64,000 nucleotides of DNA. It comes from Pirellulales bacterium. GTDB taxonomy: Bacteria > Planctomycetota > Planctomycetia > Pirellulales > UBA1268. Numbering within the stretch: the first letter of the stretch is position 1; each line of letters opens with the position of its first letter. Below are positions 5,219-43,662 of this stretch, piece after piece. The DNA lies in NCBI GenBank assembly GCA_044369655.1, contig JBILWX010000001.1, positions 56,133 through 120,132 of the forward strand, in the 5' to 3' direction. Made by a program: the position numbers and the translations under genes. The notes beneath the pieces were generated by a model. That model worked only from the letters and a program-made list of their open reading frames with translations, was not told the DNA's origin and ran no database searches.

Positions 5219-5331
5219 CCCCGCGGGCTTACTCCAACCCCGCGGGCTTACTCCAACCCCGCGGGCTTACTCCAACCCCGCGGGCTTACTCCAACCCCGC
5301 GGGCTTACTCCAACCCCGCGGGCTTACTCCA
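5219..5331. repeat. Perfect 19-bp tandem repeat, about 6 copies, unit CCCCGCGGGCTTACTCCAA
   Basis: Read directly: units start at 5219, 5238, 5257, 5276, 5295 and 5314 (last copy 18/19). Each unit contains the palindrome CCCGCGGG. The array fills the whole gap between two convergent stop codons. Confidence 0.95.
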
Positions 5332-6900: not shown

Positions 6901-7031
6901 CAATGTTCGCCGGGCGGGCTGCCAGCGGCCCGTCGCCGGACGTTCGCATTCGGCCATCTGGGTTGGTCAGTCTCGCCGGGGAGAGGGTATAACGGGCCCG
7001 CGTCCCACCGTCCGTCGTTCGGAGCCATCGC

Positions 7032-13548: not shown

Positions 13549-13598
13549 GGGTTCGTCCGTGGATCGCGGATCAGGAGGTCTCTTGGGTTCAGATCTCG

Positions 13599-13691
13599 GG
13601 GGTGCAGGGCTCAGGGGTGCAGGGCTCAGGGGTGCAGGGCTCAGGGGTGCAGGGCTCAGGGGTGCAGGGCTCAGGGGTGCAGGGCTCAGGG
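13599..13691. repeat. Perfect 15-bp tandem repeat, 6 copies, unit GGGGTGCAGGGCTCA
   Basis: Read directly: units start at 13599, 13614, 13629, 13644, 13659 and 13674, followed by a partial GGG. It lies between hss and the decarboxylase and is in frame with the decarboxylase ORF. Confidence 0.95.
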
Positions 13692-15825: not shown

Positions 15826-16744
<919 letters not shown>

Positions 16745-16918
16745 CAAAGTCGGATGAAAATCCGGGCCGGGAACAAAATTCACCTCGGCATACCAACGGG
16801 GCCCGTCAGTCCAGCCTTCGGCAACTCCCGGCACGTTGAAAACGTGCCGCCACGGGAGATAGGCACAGCCGTGCCGAGGAGGGATGCGCCCATCCCCGTT
16901 GAAATCTGCGAAAACGAA

Positions 16919-16991
16919 TCGGGGCGGAGAGATTCGAACTCTCGACCTCCTGGTCCCAAACCAGGCGCGCTGCCAACTGCGCTACGCCCCG
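16919..16991 (-). tRNA. tRNA-Pro (anticodon UGG)
   Basis: The reverse complement folds as a cloverleaf: acceptor CGGGGCG/CGCCCCG, anticodon stem CCTGG/CCAGG with loop TTTGGGA, T-arm GAGAG-TTCGAAT-CTCTC. 73 nt; CCA is not encoded. Confidence 0.9.
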
Positions 16992-17052
16992 ATGGCAGGC
17001 CCACGGATGGCAGGCCTGCGATGAGGAGAGTCTACCGCATCGGGGACCGGAG

Positions 17053-18108
17053 TCACTCCGCCAAATGCTCGAACAGCCGCTGGAATTCGTCGAGATTCGC
17101 GAATGGGATCACGATTCGGCCCGCCCCCTTGCCGTTGGCGTGCACCACCACCTTCACGCCCAAGGCCCGCCGCAGGTCGTTTTCCACGGCCACGGTCTGG
17201 CTGGAACGCTTCGTGGCCGGGCGGCCCGGCTTTCGTTTCGTCGCCGTGCCGGCGGTCGTGGTGGAGCCTCCTCCGACGGACTGCCCGCCGCCCTCGTCGC
17301 CCAGCGCGTCATCTTCGGAGAGGTCGTCGGCCCGGAGGATCTCGGCCACCTCCGCTTCGATCGTGCGGACGGAGAGTCCGTCCGACGCGATGCGATCGGC
17401 CAGGCGGGACTGCTCCTCTTCGTCGCCCAGCGGCAGAAGCGCCCGCGCGTGGCCCATCGAGATCGCGCCCGATCGCAGCCGCTGCTGCACCGCCTCGGGC
17501 AGTTCGAGCAACCGGATCAGGTTGGCCACGGTGGAGCGGTCGATCGAAAGCCGCTTGGCGAGCTCGTCCTGCGTGCCGCCCCAGGCGGAAAGATACTGCT
17601 TGAAGCTCGCCGCTTTCTCCAGCGGGTCGAGGTCGCGACGCTGGAGGTTCTCGACGATGGCGATCTCCGACATCTGCCGGTCGTCGACCTCGAGCACCCG
17701 GACGGGCACCTTGCCCCAGCCCAGCCGCCGTGCGGCGAAGAGCCGACGCTGTCCCGCGATGAGCTGGTAGCGGTCGCCATACGCCCGCACCACGATCGGC
17801 TGCACGAGCCCGTGCTCCCGCAGGCTGTTGGCCAGCTCGACCAGATCGGTGTCGTTGACCACGCTCCGCGGCTGCCACGGATTGGGGTCGATGAGCCCCT
17901 CGGCGATTTCGCTCGTGGGCAGCGAAGCGGCGGCCTGCTCCAACTCCTCGGGCTTGTGCAGGATCAGGCGGGCGGCACCGGCGCCAAGTTCCGGGCGGGC
18001 GGGCTGCGCGGCGACGGCCGCACTGCCGTGTGTCACCGGCGCGGGGTCGATTCCGGCCCGACCCAGCAGCGCCTCCAGCCCACGGCCCAAGCGTCGTTCC
18101 TTACTCAC
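17053..18108 (-). CDS. parB: Chromosome partitioning protein ParB
   Basis: A GTG start gives VSKERRLGRGLEALL. Also IVENLQRRDLDPLE and an HTH. It overlaps the parA stop by 8 nt. Confidence 0.9.
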   Translation of the reverse strand: MSKERRLGRGLEALLGRAGIDPAPVTHGSAAVAAQPARPELGAGAARLILHKPEELEQAAASLPTSEIAEGLIDPNPWQPRSVVNDTDLVELANSLREHGLVQPIVVRAYGDRYQLIAGQRRLFAARRLGWGKVPVRVLEVDDRQMSEIAIVENLQRRDLDPLEKAASFKQYLSAWGGTQDELAKRLSIDRSTVANLIRLLELPEAVQQRLRSGAISMGHARALLPLGDEEEQSRLADRIASDGLSVRTIEAEVAEILRADDLSEDDALGDEGGGQSVGGGSTTTAGTATKRKPGRPATKRSSQTVAVENDLRRALGVKVVVHANGKGAGRIVIPFANLDEFQRLFEHLAE

Positions 18109-18880
18109 AGTCGCGTACCTCCATGCACAGTTCCGTGTAGGCCCGCGCTCCTCGTGAGCGCGGGGCGTAATCGAGCACACTCTGCGCGTGGCTGGGCGCC
18201 TCCGAGACGGCCACGTCGCGCGGGATCACCGTCTCGAAGACGATCTCCCCAAAAAAATCCCTGACCTCGGACTCGACCTCCGCCGTCAGTTCGAGCGCGG
18301 CGTCGTGCATCGTGAGCACGATCCCGCTGAACCGGAGCCGGCCGGGCCGTTCGGCCATCACGTCGCGGATCACCTCGATCATCTGGGTGAGTCCCTCGAG
18401 CGCGAAGTATTCGCATTGAATGGGCATCAGCACCTCGGTGCTCCCGGCCAGCGCGGTTCGCGTCAGTTCGCCGACGCTCGGCGGGCAGTCGATGAGGCAA
18501 TAGTCCCAGGCATTGAGCCCGCGGGCGAGATGGTTTTCGAGCACCATCGACCCGCTCCTCGCCTCGGCTGCGATCCGCTCGACGTCGCGGACACTACGGC
18601 TGCCGGGGATGATGGAGAGATTGGGGACCCCGGTTTCCACCACGGCTTCGCAGAGCGGAGCCTCCGACACGAGCGGATGCGTCGGGGCCGGGGCGGCACC
18701 GAAGCCCGTTGTGGCATTGCACTGAGGGTCGAGATCCAGCAGGAGCGTGCGGAGTCCGCCGCGGGCCAGGCCGGCCGCCAGGTTGGAGGCGGTCGTCGTC
18801 TTGCCCACTCCCCCCTTCTGGTTTGCCACGCAGAGAATCCTTCCCACGCACACATCCCTTCCAAACGACAGCGCACGCAC
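18101..18880 (-). CDS. parA: Chromosome partitioning ATPase ParA/Soj
   Basis: Deviant Walker A motif VANQKGGVGKTTT with ParA-family similarity throughout. Confidence 0.9.
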   Translation of the reverse strand: MRALSFGRDVCVGRILCVANQKGGVGKTTTASNLAAGLARGGLRTLLLDLDPQCNATTGFGAAPAPTHPLVSEAPLCEAVVETGVPNLSIIPGSRSVRDVERIAAEARSGSMVLENHLARGLNAWDYCLIDCPPSVGELTRTALAGSTEVLMPIQCEYFALEGLTQMIEVIRDVMAERPGRLRFSGIVLTMHDAALELTAEVESEVRDFFGEIVFETVIPRDVAVSEAPSHAQSVLDYAPRSRGARAYTELCMEVRDCE

Positions 18881-18927
18881 AACGCGTGCCCTCGGAATAT
18901 CGGCAGCAACCGGCCCGGCATGGACGT

Positions 18928-18943
18928 GGTTTCACGCGAAACC
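18928..18943. promoter_or_regulatory. parS-like site GGTTTCACGCGAAACC (13/14 of the core)
   Basis: One central mismatch relative to the canonical core GTTTCACGTGAAAC. It lies 48 bp upstream of the parA start. Confidence 0.6.
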
Positions 18944-18973
18944 GCCCTTGCTTCCCAGGTTGCCCATCCTGCC

Positions 18974-18989
18974 GGTTTCACGTGAAACC
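18974..18989. promoter_or_regulatory. parS site GGTTTCACGTGAAACC (perfect 14-bp core)
   Basis: Exact match to the conserved palindromic core GTTTCACGTGAAAC of chromosomal parS. Confidence 0.8.
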
Positions 18990-19019
18990 TATGCGGCCTG
19001 GGTGGTAGTGGCCTGGGGC

Positions 19020-19163
19020 GGTTCGGGGCTGCCCATGCCCCTTCGCCGGATGTTCGCTTTCGCCCTCCGGGCTGTCGCTCACTCGATGCTGACTGCGCTC
19101 CGGCATCCTGCCTGCGCTGGTCAGCAACGCCGGCTCTCGGGGCATGGGCAGCCCCTCACGGAT
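19020..19163. repeat. ~144-bp self-complementary repeat element, left copy
   Basis: GGGGCTGCCCATGCCCC (19025-19041) is the exact reverse complement of GGGGCATGGGCAGCCCC (19139-19155). The whole element recurs reverse-complemented at 20711-20852. Confidence 0.8.
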
Positions 19164-19250
19164 TCCGCAAGGCAGAAGGGCGGCGCCAGGCTCGTGCGCC
19201 AGGCAAGGCAAGGTCGGCAGGAAGCCGAGCCTTGCCGTGAAACCGTCTCG

Positions 19251-20573
19251 TCATGCGAGCGGATTGAAGACCAGGCCGCTGGCGAGCTTGGGGTAGAAGT
19301 AGGTGCTCTTGGCTGGCATGCGTTCGCCGGTCTGGCTCACCTCACGGATGTCCTCCACCGTCGCCGGCATCACGAGGGCGGCCAGCGGGTAGCGGCCGGT
19401 CTTCAGGCCCTCCACCACCTCCCGCACGAGGTGCACGTAGCCCGGCGTCGGGATCTCCTTGGCTCCGAGCAACTCGCCGATCACGAGCCGGTGGAGGATC
19501 GACACGCCGAGGCTTCGCCAGGCTGTCCCATGGTCGGCCGCCACCGCCTCCATCCGGGCCCGGCCCGCCGGGGTGATCCTGGCGAGTGTCCACGCCTGAT
19601 CGCCGCCGGTGTAGAGGCCGAGCGTGCCCTGCCTGTTTTCCGACTCGACTTCGAGCCAGACGTTGTCGGCCTGGGCCGGTCCCGTGCCGGCCGGTTCGAC
19701 CGTAAAGCAGTCGCCCAACCGGCTGGCCAGTTCAGCCGCAGTGGCCACGGCGGGCTGAACGAAGAGCCGGTGGGTGGGCAGAACCACCAGCCCAGGATCG
19801 CTCATGCCAACGAGCATCATCAGGACGAAGTTTGCTGGGTGGTCGGAGGGCAAGGGCTCGCCACCGTGTTCCTCGGCATATTCCCGGGCCACCTCGTCGC
19901 GGTAGTTGCAGGCGGTCTCGTAGCGGTGGTGGCCATCGGCGATGAAGACCGGCTTCGGCCCCAACAGCCCCGCCACTCTCGCAGCGACCGACTCGTTCGT
20001 CATGGGCCACATCCAGCTGCGCACGCCGAGGTGATCGGTCGCCTCGACAGGGGGCTGGCCTGCCACCGACCTGTCGAGCACGTCCTGCACCTCGCCCTGC
20101 GGGTCGGGGTAGAGGCCGAACACCTGGCTGAGGTTCGCCCGGCAGGCCCGCGTCAGGAGGAGCCGGTCCTGCTTGGGGCCCGACATCGTCTCCTCGTGCG
20201 GGTGGATGTTGCCGGTGCCGAAGCGTTCCAGCCGCACGCGGGCCATCACGCCGCGGCGGAGATGCCTCATCCCCTCCACCTCGAACTCCTGGTGGTAGAC
20301 ATAGAGGGCCGCCGCCGGCTCCTGCATGACCACCCCCTGCTCACGCCAGTCTTTGAGGAACTTCGCCGCCCGGGTGTATCTGTTGGAGCGGTCGTCGTCC
20401 CCCGGTTCCTCGCGGTTGAGTTCGAGCCGGACTACGTTGGCGGGGTGCTGCTCGTAGAGCTGTGCCTGCAGGGCCGCATCGATGACGTCGTAGGGCGGGG
20501 CGATGACCTGCGAGAGGGCTCCGACGTGCTTGGGGTCGTAGCGGAGGCCGCGGAGAGGAGCGACGGATGGCAT
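19251..20573 (-). CDS. DUF1015 family protein
   Basis: N-terminus MPSVAPLRGLRYDP...VIAPPYDVI and HPHEETMSGPKQDRL are characteristic of DUF1015. Confidence 0.8.
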   Translation of the reverse strand: MPSVAPLRGLRYDPKHVGALSQVIAPPYDVIDAALQAQLYEQHPANVVRLELNREEPGDDDRSNRYTRAAKFLKDWREQGVVMQEPAAALYVYHQEFEVEGMRHLRRGVMARVRLERFGTGNIHPHEETMSGPKQDRLLLTRACRANLSQVFGLYPDPQGEVQDVLDRSVAGQPPVEATDHLGVRSWMWPMTNESVAARVAGLLGPKPVFIADGHHRYETACNYRDEVAREYAEEHGGEPLPSDHPANFVLMMLVGMSDPGLVVLPTHRLFVQPAVATAAELASRLGDCFTVEPAGTGPAQADNVWLEVESENRQGTLGLYTGGDQAWTLARITPAGRARMEAVAADHGTAWRSLGVSILHRLVIGELLGAKEIPTPGYVHLVREVVEGLKTGRYPLAALVMPATVEDIREVSQTGERMPAKSTYFYPKLASGLVFNPLA

Positions 20574-20710
20574 GCTTCAAGGCCGCGGAAGTGGCGAGGG
20601 GATAGGTCGTTGAAGCGTAGCACACGCGAGCCGGCACAAGGCCAAAACCGCGGGCGACCGGGACCGACGTCCCAGCGATTCCGCTCCGAACGCGTGTTCG
20701 ACTCTGGGTC

Positions 20711-20852
20711 ATCCGTGAGGGGGTGTCCATGCCCCGGGAGCCGGCGTTGCTGACGAGCGCAGGCAGGATGCCGGAGCGAAGTCAGCATCGAGTGAGCGCA
20801 GGCAGGATGCCATAGCGAACGTCCGGCGACGGGTCATGGGCAGCCCCGAACC
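20711..20852. repeat. ~142-bp self-complementary repeat element, right copy (inverted relative to 19020-19163)
   Basis: Its reverse complement aligns with the left copy from GGTTCGGGGCTGCCCATG to CCTCACGGAT, at about 85-90% identity by eye. Confidence 0.8.
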
Positions 20853-20883
20853 GTCGGGGTGAATAGCAGGTCCAGCACCCGGA

Positions 20884-20900
20884 TGTTTCCACGTGAAACG
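20884..20900. promoter_or_regulatory. Degenerate parS-like site TGTTTCCACGTGAAACG
   Basis: The right half CACGTGAAAC is perfect and the left half has an extra C (12/14 of the core). Its position mirrors the parS at 18974 relative to the repeat element. Confidence 0.4.
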
Positions 20901-20933
20901 CCTGTCGCCGCAGCGGGGGGCTGCGGCGACAGG
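20901..20933 (-). terminator. Stem-loop downstream of ahcY (14-bp perfect stem)
   Basis: CCTGTCGCCGCAGC / GCTGCGGCGACAGG with a G5 loop, 30 nt after the ahcY stop. On the minus strand it is followed by only a short CGTTTC tract. Confidence 0.5.
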
Positions 20934-20963
20934 ACCGATTCAAGGGTGGATCGCGGTGACCGA

Positions 20964-22277
20964 CTAGTACCGGTAGTACTCGGGCTTGAAGGGGCCCTCG
21001 ACCGGCACGTGCAGGTACTCGGCCTGGGCAGGGGTGAGCTTGGTGAGCTTCACGCCCAGCTTGTCGAGGTGCAGGCGAGCCACCTCCTCGTCCAGCTTCT
21101 TGGGGAGCAGATGCACGCCGACGTCGTACTTGTCGGTCTCCGTCCAGAGGGCGATCTGAGCGAGCACCTGATTGGTGAAGCTCGTGCTCATGACGAACGA
21201 CGGGTGGCCGGTGGCACAGCCGAGGTTCACGAGCCGGCCCTCCGCCAGCACGATCACCGAGTTGCCACTCGGCAGCGTGTAGCGATCGACCTGGGGCTTG
21301 ATCTCGACCTTCTTCACGCCCTTGGTGTTCTCCAGCCAAGCGACGTCGATCTCGAGGTCGAAGTGCCCGATGTTGCAGACGATGGCGTCGTTGGGCATCT
21401 GCTGGATGTGCTTGCCGAGGATCACGTCGCGGCAACCGGTGGCCGTCACGAAGATCTGGCCGCGGGAGGCGGCTTCTTCCATGGTCGTGACCTCGTAGCC
21501 CTCCATCGCAGCCTGCAGGGCGTTGATGGGGTCGATCTCGGTGACGATCACGCGGGCCCCCAGGGCCTTCATGGCATGGGCACAGCCCTTGCCGACGTCG
21601 CCGTAGCCGCAGACCACCACCACCTTGCCGGCCACCATGACGTCGGTGGCCCGCTTGATGCCGTCGGCGAGGCTCTCCCGGCAGCCGTAGAGGTTGTCGA
21701 ACTTGCTCTTCGTGCAGGAGTCGTTGATGTTGATCGCGGGGAGCTTCAGCTCGCCGTTCTCGTGCATCTGGTAGAGGCGGTGCACCCCCGTGGTCGTCTC
21801 CTCGGAGAGGCCGCGGATGCCGGCGATCAGTTCCGGATACTTGTTGTGGACCATCGCGGTGAGGTCACCGCCGTCGTCCAGAATCATGTTCAGCGGCTGG
21901 TCGTCCGGGAAGAACAGGGTCTGCTCGATGCACCAGTCGAATTCCTCGTTCGTCATGCCCTTCCAGGCGTAGACCGGGAAGCCGGCCTTGGCAATCGCGG
22001 CGGCGGCGTGGTCCTGCGTCGAGAAGATGTTGCAACTGCTCCACGTGACCTCCGCACCGAGCGCCTTCAGCGTCTCGATGAGGACGGCCGTCTGGATCGT
22101 CATGTGCAGGCATCCGGCGATCCGCGCACCAGCCAGGGGCTTGGAACGACCATACTTCTCCCGCAGCGCCATCAGGCCGGGCATTTCATTCTCGGCCAGC
22201 ATGATCTCCTTGCGGCCCCAATCGGCCAGGGACAGATCGGCGACTTTGTACGGCAGGCGGGTTTCGACATGCGACAC
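20964..22277 (-). CDS. ahcY: Adenosylhomocysteinase
   Basis: [40 protein letters not shown] and [13 protein letters not shown] start preceded by GGAG. I trimmed the ORF-track start from 22454. Confidence 0.9.
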
Positions 22278-43583: not shown

Positions 43584-43598
43584 GCTGACCCCGCTCGG

Positions 43599-43662
43599 CC
43601 GAGATTTACCCTAGCCGAGATTTACCCTAGCCGAGATTTACCCTAGCCGAGATTTACCCTAT
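43599..43662. repeat. 16-bp tandem repeat, 4 copies, unit CCGAGATTTACCCTAG
   Basis: Read directly: units start at 43599, 43615, 43631 and 43647 (last copy 15/16). The sigma-factor stop codon (CTA on the plus strand, 43659-43661) lies in the last unit. Confidence 0.95.

What the first reader, a model, noticed from the sequence alone, without database searches (positions are those of the whole stretch)
18928..20933. Mirror-image parS + 143-bp palindromic repeat modules bracket a single DUF1015 gene next to parAB
Three parS-type sites lie just upstream of parA. They are a perfect core GTTTCACGTGAAAC (18974-18989), a 13/14 site (18928-18943) and, 1.9 kb away, a 12/14 site (20884-20900). About 30 bp inside the 18974 and 20884 sites lie two copies of a ~143-bp element in inverted orientation (19020-19163 and 20711-20852, about 85-90% identical by eye). 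Each copy is itself a long imperfect palindrome: 17-bp termini GGGGCTGCCCATGCCCC and GGGGCATGGGCAGCCCC, with inner TGCTGAC/GTCAGCA arms. The spurious ORF translations MLTALRHPACAGQQRRLSGHGQPLTD (+) and MLTSLRHPACARQQRRLPGHGHPLTD (-) independently show the duplication. The two modules enclose exactly one gene, DUF1015. There are three possible readings. It may be an organised ParB-loading region with structured spacer elements. It may be a MITE/REP-like palindromic element family that landed on both sides of the gene. Or the 1.5-kb segment may invert by recombination between the arms. I know of no description of such an arrangement.
Basis: partly seen in the sequence, partly recalled or inferred. 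Interest (0 to 1): 0.6.

Follow-up and report, generated by a model that had tools for sequence, protein, structure and literature searches.

The report
Dispersed palindromic repeat beside parS sites
The two mirror-image 145-bp palindromes around the DUF1015 gene are separate insertions of an abundant, apparently mobile intergenic repeat of freshwater Planctomycetes, and they sit next to an ordinary, conserved cluster of parS partition sites by coincidence of location, not as one organised module.

Summary
Two good parS sites lie upstream of parA and a weaker third lies upstream of DUF1015. Two inverted copies of a ~145-bp palindromic element, about 90% identical, lie about 30 bp inside the parS sites.

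The two features are independent of each other:
- All nine orthologous lineages examined keep the three parS sites, but the elements come and go. Some lineages have none, some have one, one has an inverted copy, and one carries a different repeat family at both sites.
- The element is a dispersed family.
- Of 282 copies outside the source contig, only the orthologous one lies near a good parS.
- Each window copy is closer to copies elsewhere (96% and 94%) than to the other window copy.
- Copies are intergenic and favour gene 3' ends.
- They keep a three-way-junction hairpin with many compensatory changes. Wobble pairs fall on one strand only.

Best reading: a previously undescribed REPIN/MITE-like non-autonomous element inserted into two parS-bearing intergenic regions. 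Its mobilising enzyme is not identified. Inversion of the DUF1015 segment is untested and unlikely. This is a new member of a known kind, of modest interest.

The parts
17053..18090 (-). parB gene
   Evidence: Pfam ParB_N, HTH_ParB and ParB_C. The JGI gene call in L001 maps to these coordinates.
18101..18880 (-). parA gene (longest ORF; the JGI call starts at 18808)
   Evidence: Pfam AAA_31, CbiA and ParA-type ATPase.
18928..18943 (.). parS site, 13/14 of the core (GGTTTCACGCGAAACC)
   Evidence: A pair of sites 46 nt apart (65 in some) upstream of parA is conserved in all orthologs.
18974..18989 (.). parS site, perfect 16-bp palindrome (GGTTTCACGTGAAACC)
   Evidence: conserved in orthologs.
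19019..19162 (+). Copy A of the dispersed palindromic repeat (family F1), in model orientation +
   Evidence: nhmmer 155 bits. Folds at -91 to -93 kcal/mol, z about -6 to -7. Orthologous copies are present in L237, L079 and L245, inverted in L240, and absent in L243, L246 and L247. The closest relative is L209:507-654 at 95.9%.
19230..19243 (.). Decayed parS remnant (10/14) just after the DUF1015 stop codon
   Evidence: Read from the sequence (inverted repeat I4). The same position holds a 13/14 site in L243 and a 12/14 site in L246.
19251..20573 (-). DUF1015 gene
   Evidence: Pfam PF06245, E = 4.7e-86. There are 5806 homologs at E <= 1e-100, and close ones are syntenic with ahcY and parAB.
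20712..20853 (-). Copy B of family F1, in model orientation -
   Evidence: nhmmer 156 bits. Absent at this site in L079, L240, L243, L245, L246 and L247. The closest relative is L053:2362-2507 at 93.8%.
20885..20899 (.). Third parS-like site, GTTTCCACGTGAAAC (the consensus with one extra base; 12/14 ungapped)
   Evidence: A parS-like site just downstream of the ahcY stop is conserved in all orthologs, at 13/14 in most.
20901..20933 (-). Perfect 14-bp hairpin downstream of ahcY (terminator-like, without a U-tract)
   Evidence: the repeat finder I11. Shared with L242. Other orthologs have a canonical hairpin plus T-run terminator on the other side of parS3.
20964..22277 (-). ahcY gene (S-adenosylhomocysteine hydrolase)
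   Evidence: Pfam AdoHcyase and AdoHcyase_NAD; JGI call of 437 aa.
6916..6964 (+). Solo left arm (partial copy) of family F1 in another intergenic region
   Evidence: nhmmer E = 7e-4, model positions 10-57; the repeat finder I6; sequence.

Best explanation
Two unrelated things share this locus.

(1) A conserved chromosomal partition-site cluster. Two good parS sites lie upstream of parA, one weaker site lies downstream of ahcY, and a decayed fourth lies after DUF1015. I infer that ParB encoded next door binds the good sites.

(2) Two independently inserted copies of a ~145-bp non-coding palindromic repeat, here called family F1. F1 is dispersed at roughly one copy per 30 kb in the genomes of a clade of freshwater Planctomycetota. 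It behaves like a non-autonomous mobile element of the REPIN/MITE kind. It sits in intergenic DNA, mostly downstream of gene 3' ends, in either orientation. It is gained, lost and flipped between close relatives, and it is sometimes truncated to solo arms or amplified in tandem.

The sequence population is kept foldable: an 18-bp terminal stem, a 5-bp GCCGG stem and two internal hairpins. Compensatory changes maintain the pairs, and wobble intermediates fall on one strand only. This suggests that copies propagate through a single-stranded intermediate whose fold is required. That intermediate would most plausibly be ssDNA handled by an HUH/Y1 (RAYT- or IS200/IS605-like) enzyme.

Shown: the family, its distribution, the site polymorphism, the structure conservation and the independence from parS. 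Inferred: mobility itself, the single-stranded mechanism and the enzyme. The mirror symmetry arises because the only two intergenic gaps around DUF1015 each already contain a parS site and each received a copy, by chance in opposite orientations.
For: Dispersal:
- The left-arm pattern hit at least 120 metagenome stretches and at least 114 GTDB-genome stretches.
- nhmmer found 286 hits, 240 of them near full length, in 1.58 Mb.
- These fall into at least 161 distinct flank clusters.
- The 899 neighbouring ORFs fall into 638 clusters. The most recurrent are housekeeping or paralogous families, not transposases.

Independence from parS:
- Of 282 copies outside the source contig, only the ortholog L079 has a site with 1 mismatch or fewer within 100 bp.
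- All nine ortholog lineages keep three parS sites while F1 occupancy varies.

Independent insertion: copy A is 95.9% identical to L209 and copy B is 93.8% identical to L053, against about 90% to each other.

Context:
- 227 of 240 copies are intergenic.
- Gene 3' ends face the element 122 and 121 times, against 48 and 46 for 5' ends.
- Counting one copy per site gives 38 convergent, 33 tandem (18 and 15 in the two orientations) and 5 divergent contexts.

Structure:
- 97.6% of cells are paired, against 89.6% in shuffles and 32-40% in slid controls.
- 21 of 42 pairs show double changes.
- In the terminal stem, uncompensated cells are A.C 250 against G.T 23 on the model strand.
- The complementary strand folds better in 224 of 236 copies, by a mean of 8.9 kcal/mol.
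- The transition asymmetry is present in paired columns only.

Other evidence:
- Solo arms, tandem arrays and contig ends falling inside the element.
- The REPIN literature describes the same population features: palindromic doublets, compensatory changes, singlets and tandem clusters (PMC3116915).
Against: - No transposase, RAYT or autonomous parent element was found in the 1.6 Mb available.
- No target-site duplication was detected.
- No clean empty/filled pair from near-identical strains was available, so the exact ends and actual transposition are not demonstrated.
- The element lacks the GTAG tag of RAYT-associated REPs.
- Orientation correlates with local GC skew (88:41) in the sense opposite to what the IS608 lagging-strand-template model would predict for the better-folding strand.
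- At least five separate repeat insertions, of two families, have occurred in the two parS-bearing gaps within one narrow clade. This hints at a local hot spot that pure coincidence does not explain.
Confidence: 0.85

Rival explanations
1. The elements are functional structured RNAs that have been multiplied around the genome. They could be orientation-independent hairpin terminators or mRNA 3'-end stabilisers, or a small RNA. At this locus they would insulate ahcY, DUF1015 and parAB transcription. This overlaps with the best explanation rather than excluding it.
For: - Strong covariation with G.U wobble on one strand.
- Very stable folds.
- Marked preference for gene 3' ends and convergent gene pairs.
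- Both window copies lie between co-directional genes where a terminator or insulator would make sense.
Against: - There is no orientation bias relative to the flanking genes' transcription: 25 against 23 in tandem contexts, 18 against 15 per site, and 33 against 34 for contexts known on one side only. The strand that folds better is therefore antisense about half the time. That includes copy B here.
- No U-tract follows the stem.
- No Rfam family matches.
- Orthologs without the element use ordinary terminators.
Confidence: 0.15
2. The parS sites and the palindromic elements form one organised ParB-loading or ParB-boundary module. The elements would be recruited or retained next to parS because they shape ParB spreading, for example as cruciform roadblocks, or because ParB-parS complexes attract their insertion.
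For: - Elements of two families lie 30-35 nt from a parS in several apparently independent insertions: window A and B, L250 and L242.
- The two parS-bearing gaps have been hit repeatedly within a narrow clade.
Against: - Three ortholog lineages keep all parS sites with no element (L243/244, L246, L247-249).
- 281 of 282 other copies have no good parS nearby.
- The empty gaps are only 143-213 nt long, so any insertion must fall within tens of bases of a parS.
- The locus was selected for having two copies, so the apparent hot spot is partly ascertainment.
Confidence: 0.05
3. The 1.5-kb DUF1015 segment is an invertible switch that flips by recombination between the two inverted copies.
For: - Two inverted repeats of ~145 bp, about 90% identical, flank exactly one gene.
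- A short contig with the identical gene ends inside both repeats (L002). That is compatible with unresolved orientation, but also with ordinary assembly breaks at a dispersed repeat.
- An F1 copy is flipped between L079 and L240.
Against: - The longest perfect match between the arms is 23 bp.
- No recombinase or invertase gene lies within 10 kb.
- All nine ortholog lineages, including those with inverted F1 or F2 pairs, have DUF1015 in the same orientation as ahcY and parAB.
- The arms belong to a genome-wide family, so such inversions would be a generic hazard rather than a dedicated switch.
Confidence: 0.04

Closest known systems
REPINs (REP doublets forming hairpins) mobilised by RAYT tyrosine (HUH/Y1) transposases, e.g. 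Pseudomonas fluorescens SBW25 (PMC3116915; PMC3337134)
   Same: - Short non-coding palindromic unit made of two conserved inverted arms around a less conserved but structure-preserving spacer.
- Dispersed in extragenic DNA at tens to hundreds of copies.
- Compensatory changes keep the hairpin.
- Solo arms (singlets) and tandem clusters occur.
- The fold is relevant in a single-stranded state.
   Different: - F1 is longer, at about 145 nt.
- Its interior is a three-way junction with a duplicated 39-nt sub-unit rather than a simple hairpin.
- It has no GTAG (or clear CGTC) tag.
- No RAYT gene was found.
- The hosts are uncultured Planctomycetota.
Bacterial MITE-like palindromic elements: Correia/NEMIS (Neisseria), ERIC (enterobacteria), RPE (Rickettsia), Nezha (cyanobacteria). 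The comparison rests on my own knowledge of these families.
   Same: - Length of 100-170 bp with terminal inverted repeats.
- High copy number and intergenic location.
- Often co-transcribed as stable hairpins.
- Presence/absence polymorphism between relatives.
   Different: - No target-site duplication was detected.
- No parent IS with matching termini was found.
- The one-strand wobble asymmetry is not expected for double-strand cut-and-paste by DDE transposases.
Chromosomal parS clusters next to parAB (consensus tGTTtCAcGTGAAAca; several sites within a few kb of parB in many phyla). Established knowledge.
   Same: - 16-bp palindromes matching the consensus.
- Two to four sites in the gaps around parAB.
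- Positions conserved in relatives.
   Different: Nothing unusual. The third site in this lineage carries a one-base insertion and may be weak or dead.
Integron attC sites, including Vibrio VCRs. My own knowledge.
   Same: Imperfect palindromes of 60-140 nt whose function depends on folding of one specific strand.
   Different: - attC sites sit in one orientation in cassette arrays next to an integrase and carry R-box cores (GTTRRRY).
- F1 is scattered among housekeeping genes in both orientations, has no such core and has a highly conserved sequence.

Membership tests
parS (ParB-binding partition site) | 16-bp palindrome matching tGTTtCAcGTGAAAca | tested here: met
   18974-18989 is perfect in the 14-nt core and 18928-18943 is 13/14. 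Three hits were found against 0.11 expected. 20885-20899 is only 12/14, or the consensus with one inserted base.
parS (ParB-binding partition site) | Located next to parAB and conserved in position in relatives | tested here: met
   parA and parB were identified by Pfam. Three sites sit at equivalent positions in nine ortholog lineages.
parS (ParB-binding partition site) | Bound by ParB in vivo or in vitro | not testable with these tools
   This needs ChIP-seq or a binding assay.
MITE (non-autonomous DDE-transposon derivative) | Small, non-coding, with terminal inverted repeats | tested here: met
   About 145 nt. The terminal stem is 17-18 bp and 100% complementary in copy A, and it is conserved across the family.
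MITE (non-autonomous DDE-transposon derivative) | Many dispersed copies, with presence/absence polymorphism between relatives | tested here: met
   At least 240 near-full copies at 161 or more sites. Occupancy varies at orthologous sites.
MITE (non-autonomous DDE-transposon derivative) | Target-site duplication flanking each copy | tested here: not met
   No offset/length combination stood clearly above the shuffled control. The best excesses fall inside conserved, paired flank positions. Exact ends are not fixed by an empty site, so a short duplication could have been missed.
MITE (non-autonomous DDE-transposon derivative) | Related autonomous IS with the same termini | tested here: inconclusive
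   None was found among the partial hits or neighbouring ORFs in 1.6 Mb. Whole genomes were not available.
REP/REPIN-RAYT system | Two inverted conserved arms plus spacer that form a hairpin kept by compensatory change | tested here: met
   Feature as described in PMC3116915.
REP/REPIN-RAYT system | Conserved GTAG (or CGTC) tag at the foot of each REP hairpin (PMC3733652) | tested here: not met
   The family consensus contains no GTAG or CTAC. A CGTC occurs after the terminal 17-mer, but the stem and loop dimensions do not fit the CGTC families described in PMC3733652.
REP/REPIN-RAYT system | A cognate RAYT (Y1/HUH) gene flanked by the repeats | tested here: inconclusive
RAYTs are single-copy, so they are unlikely to be sampled.
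REP/REPIN-RAYT system | Extragenic, with a bias to gene 3' ends | tested here: met
   227 of 240 copies are intergenic. Per site, 38 contexts are convergent and 5 divergent.
Curated structured RNA family (Rfam) | Match to an Rfam covariance model | tested here: not met
   No hit at gathering score in the window other than tRNA-Pro. No hit at E <= 1 in 18800-21000.
Invertible DNA switch | Inverted repeats flanking the segment | tested here: met
Invertible DNA switch | Dedicated recombinase nearby, and both orientations present in the population | tested here: not met
   No recombinase appears among the genes called within 10 kb. The orientation is the same in all nine ortholog lineages. Read-level data for the source population are not available.

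The most novel reading that the evidence does not exclude
The short intergenic gaps that carry parS sites around DUF1015 may be a true hot spot for structured palindromic elements. At least five apparently separate insertions, from two related families F1 and F2, lie mostly 30-35 nt from a parS within one narrow clade. In two lineages they form inverted pairs bracketing the gene. This could arise in two ways. The ParB-parS nucleoprotein, or origin-proximal single-stranded DNA, could attract a strand-specific, fold-dependent transposition machinery that is not yet identified. Alternatively, cruciform-forming repeats could be retained as boundaries to ParB sliding.
Probability: 0.07. Interest if true: 0.6.

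Novelty: new member of a known kind. Interest (0 to 1): 0.3.

Why it matters
Mainly it clears up a tempting misreading. The symmetric 'parS + palindrome' architecture is not a new kind of centromere organisation.

As a by-product it defines an abundant repeat family, and a sister family F2, that I found no description of. I checked Rfam, a plasmid collection and the searchable literature. The hosts are uncultured freshwater Planctomycetota. The family has three practical and scientific uses:
- It breaks metagenome assemblies, because many contigs end inside it.
- It can serve as a lineage marker.
- It shows unusually clean evidence, namely compensatory changes plus one-strand wobble asymmetry, that a bacterial intergenic repeat population is selected for the fold of one strand. 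This bears on how REPIN-like elements replicate in phyla where no RAYT association has been described.

Tried and rejected
- **Rfam.** Gathering thresholds on the whole window and E <= 1 on 18800-21000 gave nothing but tRNA-Pro.
- **Promoter/terminator consensus scan.** Nothing informative in the elements.
- **PLSDB plasmids, blastn.** No match.
- **Empty-site search.** I blasted element flanks against all fetched loci. It returned only other repeats next to the elements and no clean empty site.
- **Insertion boundary of copy B.** Aligning the ahcY-DUF1015 gaps of orthologs did not pin it down, because the flanks are too diverged and L242 carries a different repeat there.
- **Target-site duplication scan.** All offsets with k = 2-5 were tested and gave no convincing signal.
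- **Y1/RAYT search.** This is a weak test.
- **Recurrent neighbour genes.** Clustering 899 ORFs and running Pfam on the ten largest clusters gave housekeeping or paralogous families only.
- **Autonomous parent.** Pairing partial arm hits showed only truncations, mostly at contig ends.
- **Integron attC, riboswitch/sRNA and local inverted duplication.** These were considered and rejected on distribution, orientation and the nearest-relative test.
- **Literature.** Searches for Planctomycetes MITE/REP families or for parS-repeat associations found nothing specific.
Full report
**Layout**

All genes in the region are on the minus strand. In the direction of transcription the order is:
- ahcY (20964-22277)
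- a perfect 14-bp hairpin (20901-20933)
- a parS-like site (20885-20899)
- repeat copy B (20712-20853)
- DUF1015 (19251-20573)
- a decayed parS remnant (19230-19243)
- repeat copy A (19019-19162)
- parS (18974-18989)
- parS (18928-18943)
- parA (18101-18880)
- parB (17053-18090)
- tRNA-Pro (16918-16992)

This rests. The window is part of a 106-kb contig from a JGI freshwater metagenome (3300043786, Ga0453106_0000074). GC content is about 67%.

**Checking the observation**

The two sites upstream of parA are as described. One is a perfect 16-bp palindrome and one matches 13/14 of the core. A 16-mer scan allowing up to 3 mismatches gave 3 hits against 0.11 expected. The third site reads GTTTCCACGTGAAAC, which is the consensus with one inserted base, or 12/14 without a gap.

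The two element copies are inverted and 89.7% identical over 145 nt. Copy A has perfectly complementary 17-bp termini and folds at about -92 kcal/mol, z about -6 to -7. Copy B is more decayed, z about -2 to -3. The gaps between parS and element are 29 and 31 nt. The enclosed gene is DUF1015. A further solo left arm lies at 6916-6964.

**The element is a dispersed family**

I built a degenerate 31-nt pattern of the left arm that matches all three window copies.
- The metagenome contigs could not be sourced directly; the contig names give no habitat, and freshwater origin is inferred from the MAG record titles.
- The genomes are almost all MAGs labelled Pirellulales, Planctomycetaceae, Planctomycetia or Planctomycetota, with several hits per MAG. 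A few carry odd labels that probably reflect submitter taxonomy or binning.

An HMM built from the two window copies found 286 hits in the 1.58 Mb fetched, 240 of them near full length. Their flanks fall into at least 161 distinct clusters. The 899 neighbouring ORFs fall into 638 clusters. The ten most recurrent of these are ABC transporters, NADH dehydrogenase subunits, DUF1559 and DUF1501 proteins, kinases and similar, not transposases. Extra copies away from the seeding match occur about once per 30 kb, which is similar to the window's two copies in 64 kb. That is an inference, not a measured genome count.

**parS and the element are independent**

Of 282 copies outside the source contig, the only one with a parS-like site (1 mismatch or fewer in 14) within 100 bp is the orthologous copy in L079.

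I collected orthologous ahcY-DUF1015-parAB loci from nine lineages with DUF1015 85-92% identical to the window's. Every one has a parS-like site just downstream of ahcY and two sites upstream of parA. Some also keep a good site right after the DUF1015 stop codon, where the window has only a 10/14 remnant. Element occupancy varies:

| Lineage | Site A (DUF1015-parA gap) | Site B (ahcY-DUF1015 gap) |
|---|---|---|
| Window | F1 | F1 |
| L237-239 | F1, 174-nt variant | unknown; the contigs stop just upstream of the gene |
| L079 | F1 | none |
| L245 | F1 | none |
| L240/241 | degenerate F1 in the opposite orientation | none |
| L250-252 | none | partial F1, on the other side of the ahcY-proximal parS |
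| L243/244, L246, L247-249 | none | none |
| L242 | family F2 | family F2 |

Lineages without elements have gaps of only about 140-250 nt. In L242 both gaps carry a different ~140-nt dispersed palindromic repeat (F2), again as an inverted pair.

Each window copy also has closer relatives in unrelated loci than it has in its partner. Copy A is 95.9% identical to L209 and copy B is 93.8% identical to L053, against about 90% to each other. The two copies are therefore independent insertions, not a local inverted duplication or a designed module.

**Anatomy and behaviour of family F1**

The consensus core is 132 nt, flanked by about 6-7 further conserved and partly paired bases on each side. Its parts are:
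- An 18-bp terminal stem, GGGGCTGCCC(A/G)TGCCCCG with its complement. Each 17-mer is itself a small hairpin.
- A 5-bp invariant GCCGG/CCGGC stem.
- Two internal hairpins that derive from a duplicated ~39-nt sub-unit (D1).

On 90 copies filtered to 90% identity or less, RNAalifold predicts 42 pairs, and 21 of them show double (compensatory) changes. The independent count gives 97.6% of cells paired. This compares with 89.6% in column shuffles (0 of 500 shuffles reached the observed value) and 32-40% when partners are slid by 1-3 columns. The covariation score is 0.243 against 0.102.

Copies are intergenic in 227 of 240 cases. They face gene 3' ends far more often than 5' ends. Counting one copy per site gives 38 convergent contexts, 33 tandem and 5 divergent. 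There is no orientation preference relative to flanking transcription: 25 against 23 in tandem contexts, or 18 against 15 per site.

Solo arms, an 87-89-nt tandem amplification of the left arm, longer variants and many contig ends inside the element also occur.

**A strand asymmetry**

In the terminal stem, uncompensated cells are A.C 250 times and G.T 23 times on the strand as modelled. On the complementary strand these are therefore G.U or G.T wobbles. The ratio is about 11:1 even at the positions my search pattern left free.

The complementary strand folds better in 224 of 236 copies, by 8.9 kcal/mol on average.

The four transition types are equally frequent (4-5%) in unpaired columns. In paired columns they are skewed towards the wobble-preserving ones, so this is not a general mutation bias.

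Orientation is random with respect to transcription, so I think the constraint acts during propagation through a single-stranded intermediate rather than in mRNAs. That is the logic proposed for REPINs and the IS200/IS605-related RAYT enzymes (PMC3116915). It remains an inference for four reasons:
- I found no Y1/RAYT gene (a weak test).
- I found no parent IS.
- I found no target-site duplication.
- The element lacks the GTAG tag typical of RAYT-associated REPs (PMC3733652).

One unexplained result remains. The modelled strand lies on the G-rich strand of the flanking DNA in 88 of 129 sites (p = 4e-5). This suggests an orientation bias relative to replication. Its sense is opposite to the simple IS608-type expectation for the better-folding strand.

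**Rival readings**

A functional link between parS and the elements is contradicted by the ortholog comparison and the family-wide test. There is a residue that I cannot dismiss. At least five apparently separate insertions of two families fall in these two short gaps within a narrow clade, mostly 30-35 nt from a parS. Two cautions apply. The empty gaps are so short that any insertion must land close to a parS. The locus was also selected for having two copies.

An RNA-level role as terminator or stabiliser is compatible with the 3'-end bias. It is not supported by orientation, by a U-tract or by Rfam.

Inversion of the DUF1015 segment could not be tested on assembled contigs. The longest perfect match between the arms is 23 bp, no recombinase is nearby, and all ortholog lineages share one gene orientation.

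**Verdict**

The finding is a real sequence feature with an ordinary explanation. A conserved parS cluster next to parAB has two independent copies of a dispersed REPIN/MITE-like palindromic repeat inserted into the parS-bearing gaps on either side of DUF1015.

The repeat family appears to be undescribed. It has no match in Rfam or in the plasmid collection, and I found no description in the searchable literature. It shows clean evidence of selection on a single-strand fold. I class it as a new member of a known kind and give it modest interest.

Noticed in passing
L242:812-954 and L242:2457-2591; also L219, L145, L211, L042, L208, L155, L134, L188, L124 and L108: There is a second ~140-nt dispersed palindromic repeat family (F2). 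In ortholog L242 it occupies both gaps flanking DUF1015 as an inverted pair, where the window has F1. It shares the motifs GTCGCCGG and CCGGCTC with F1 and often lies within 100 nt of an F1 copy.
   Followed up: partly
L240:4417-4528 versus L079 (same site, flanks 92% identical): The F1 copy between DUF1015 and parS is in opposite orientation in two closely related lineages. This is either an in-place flip of the palindrome's interior or an independent re-insertion.
   Followed up: partly
Family-wide (129 sites on loci of at least 4 kb): F1 orientation correlates with the GC skew of the flanking DNA (88:41, p = 4e-5) but not with flanking gene direction. This suggests a replication-related orientation bias of unclear sense.
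   Followed up: partly
window 19230-19243: A decayed parS (10/14) lies immediately after the DUF1015 stop codon. The same position holds a 13/14 site in L243 and a 12/14 site in L246, so the ancestral locus probably had four parS sites.
   Followed up: partly
window 5219-5331, 13595-13691 and 43598-43661: Three perfect or near-perfect short tandem arrays: 19 nt x 5.9, 15 nt x 6.5 and 16 nt x 4. They look like VNTRs. Similar short tandem repeats flank F1 copies in other loci (L231, L087, L214).
   Followed up: no
L062:233-445, L074:244-363 and L186:5873-6077: The F1 left arm plus about 55 nt of other sequence is amplified as an 87-89-nt tandem repeat directly abutting a full F1 copy.
   Followed up: no
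L002 (both ends), L237-239 (start), and many loci: Metagenome contigs frequently end inside F1 copies. The family evidently breaks short-read assemblies of these Planctomycetota, including around the DUF1015 gene itself.
   Followed up: no
window about 16190-16530 (L001:14044-14382): A BrnT-type toxin gene with a small upstream partner ORF, a probable toxin-antitoxin pair, lies just downstream of parB and tRNA-Pro.
   Followed up: no
window 20901-20933 versus L079/L240/L243: The terminator after ahcY differs between lineages. In the window and L242 a U-tract-less perfect hairpin lies before the parS. In the other orthologs a canonical hairpin plus T-run lies after it.
   Followed up: no
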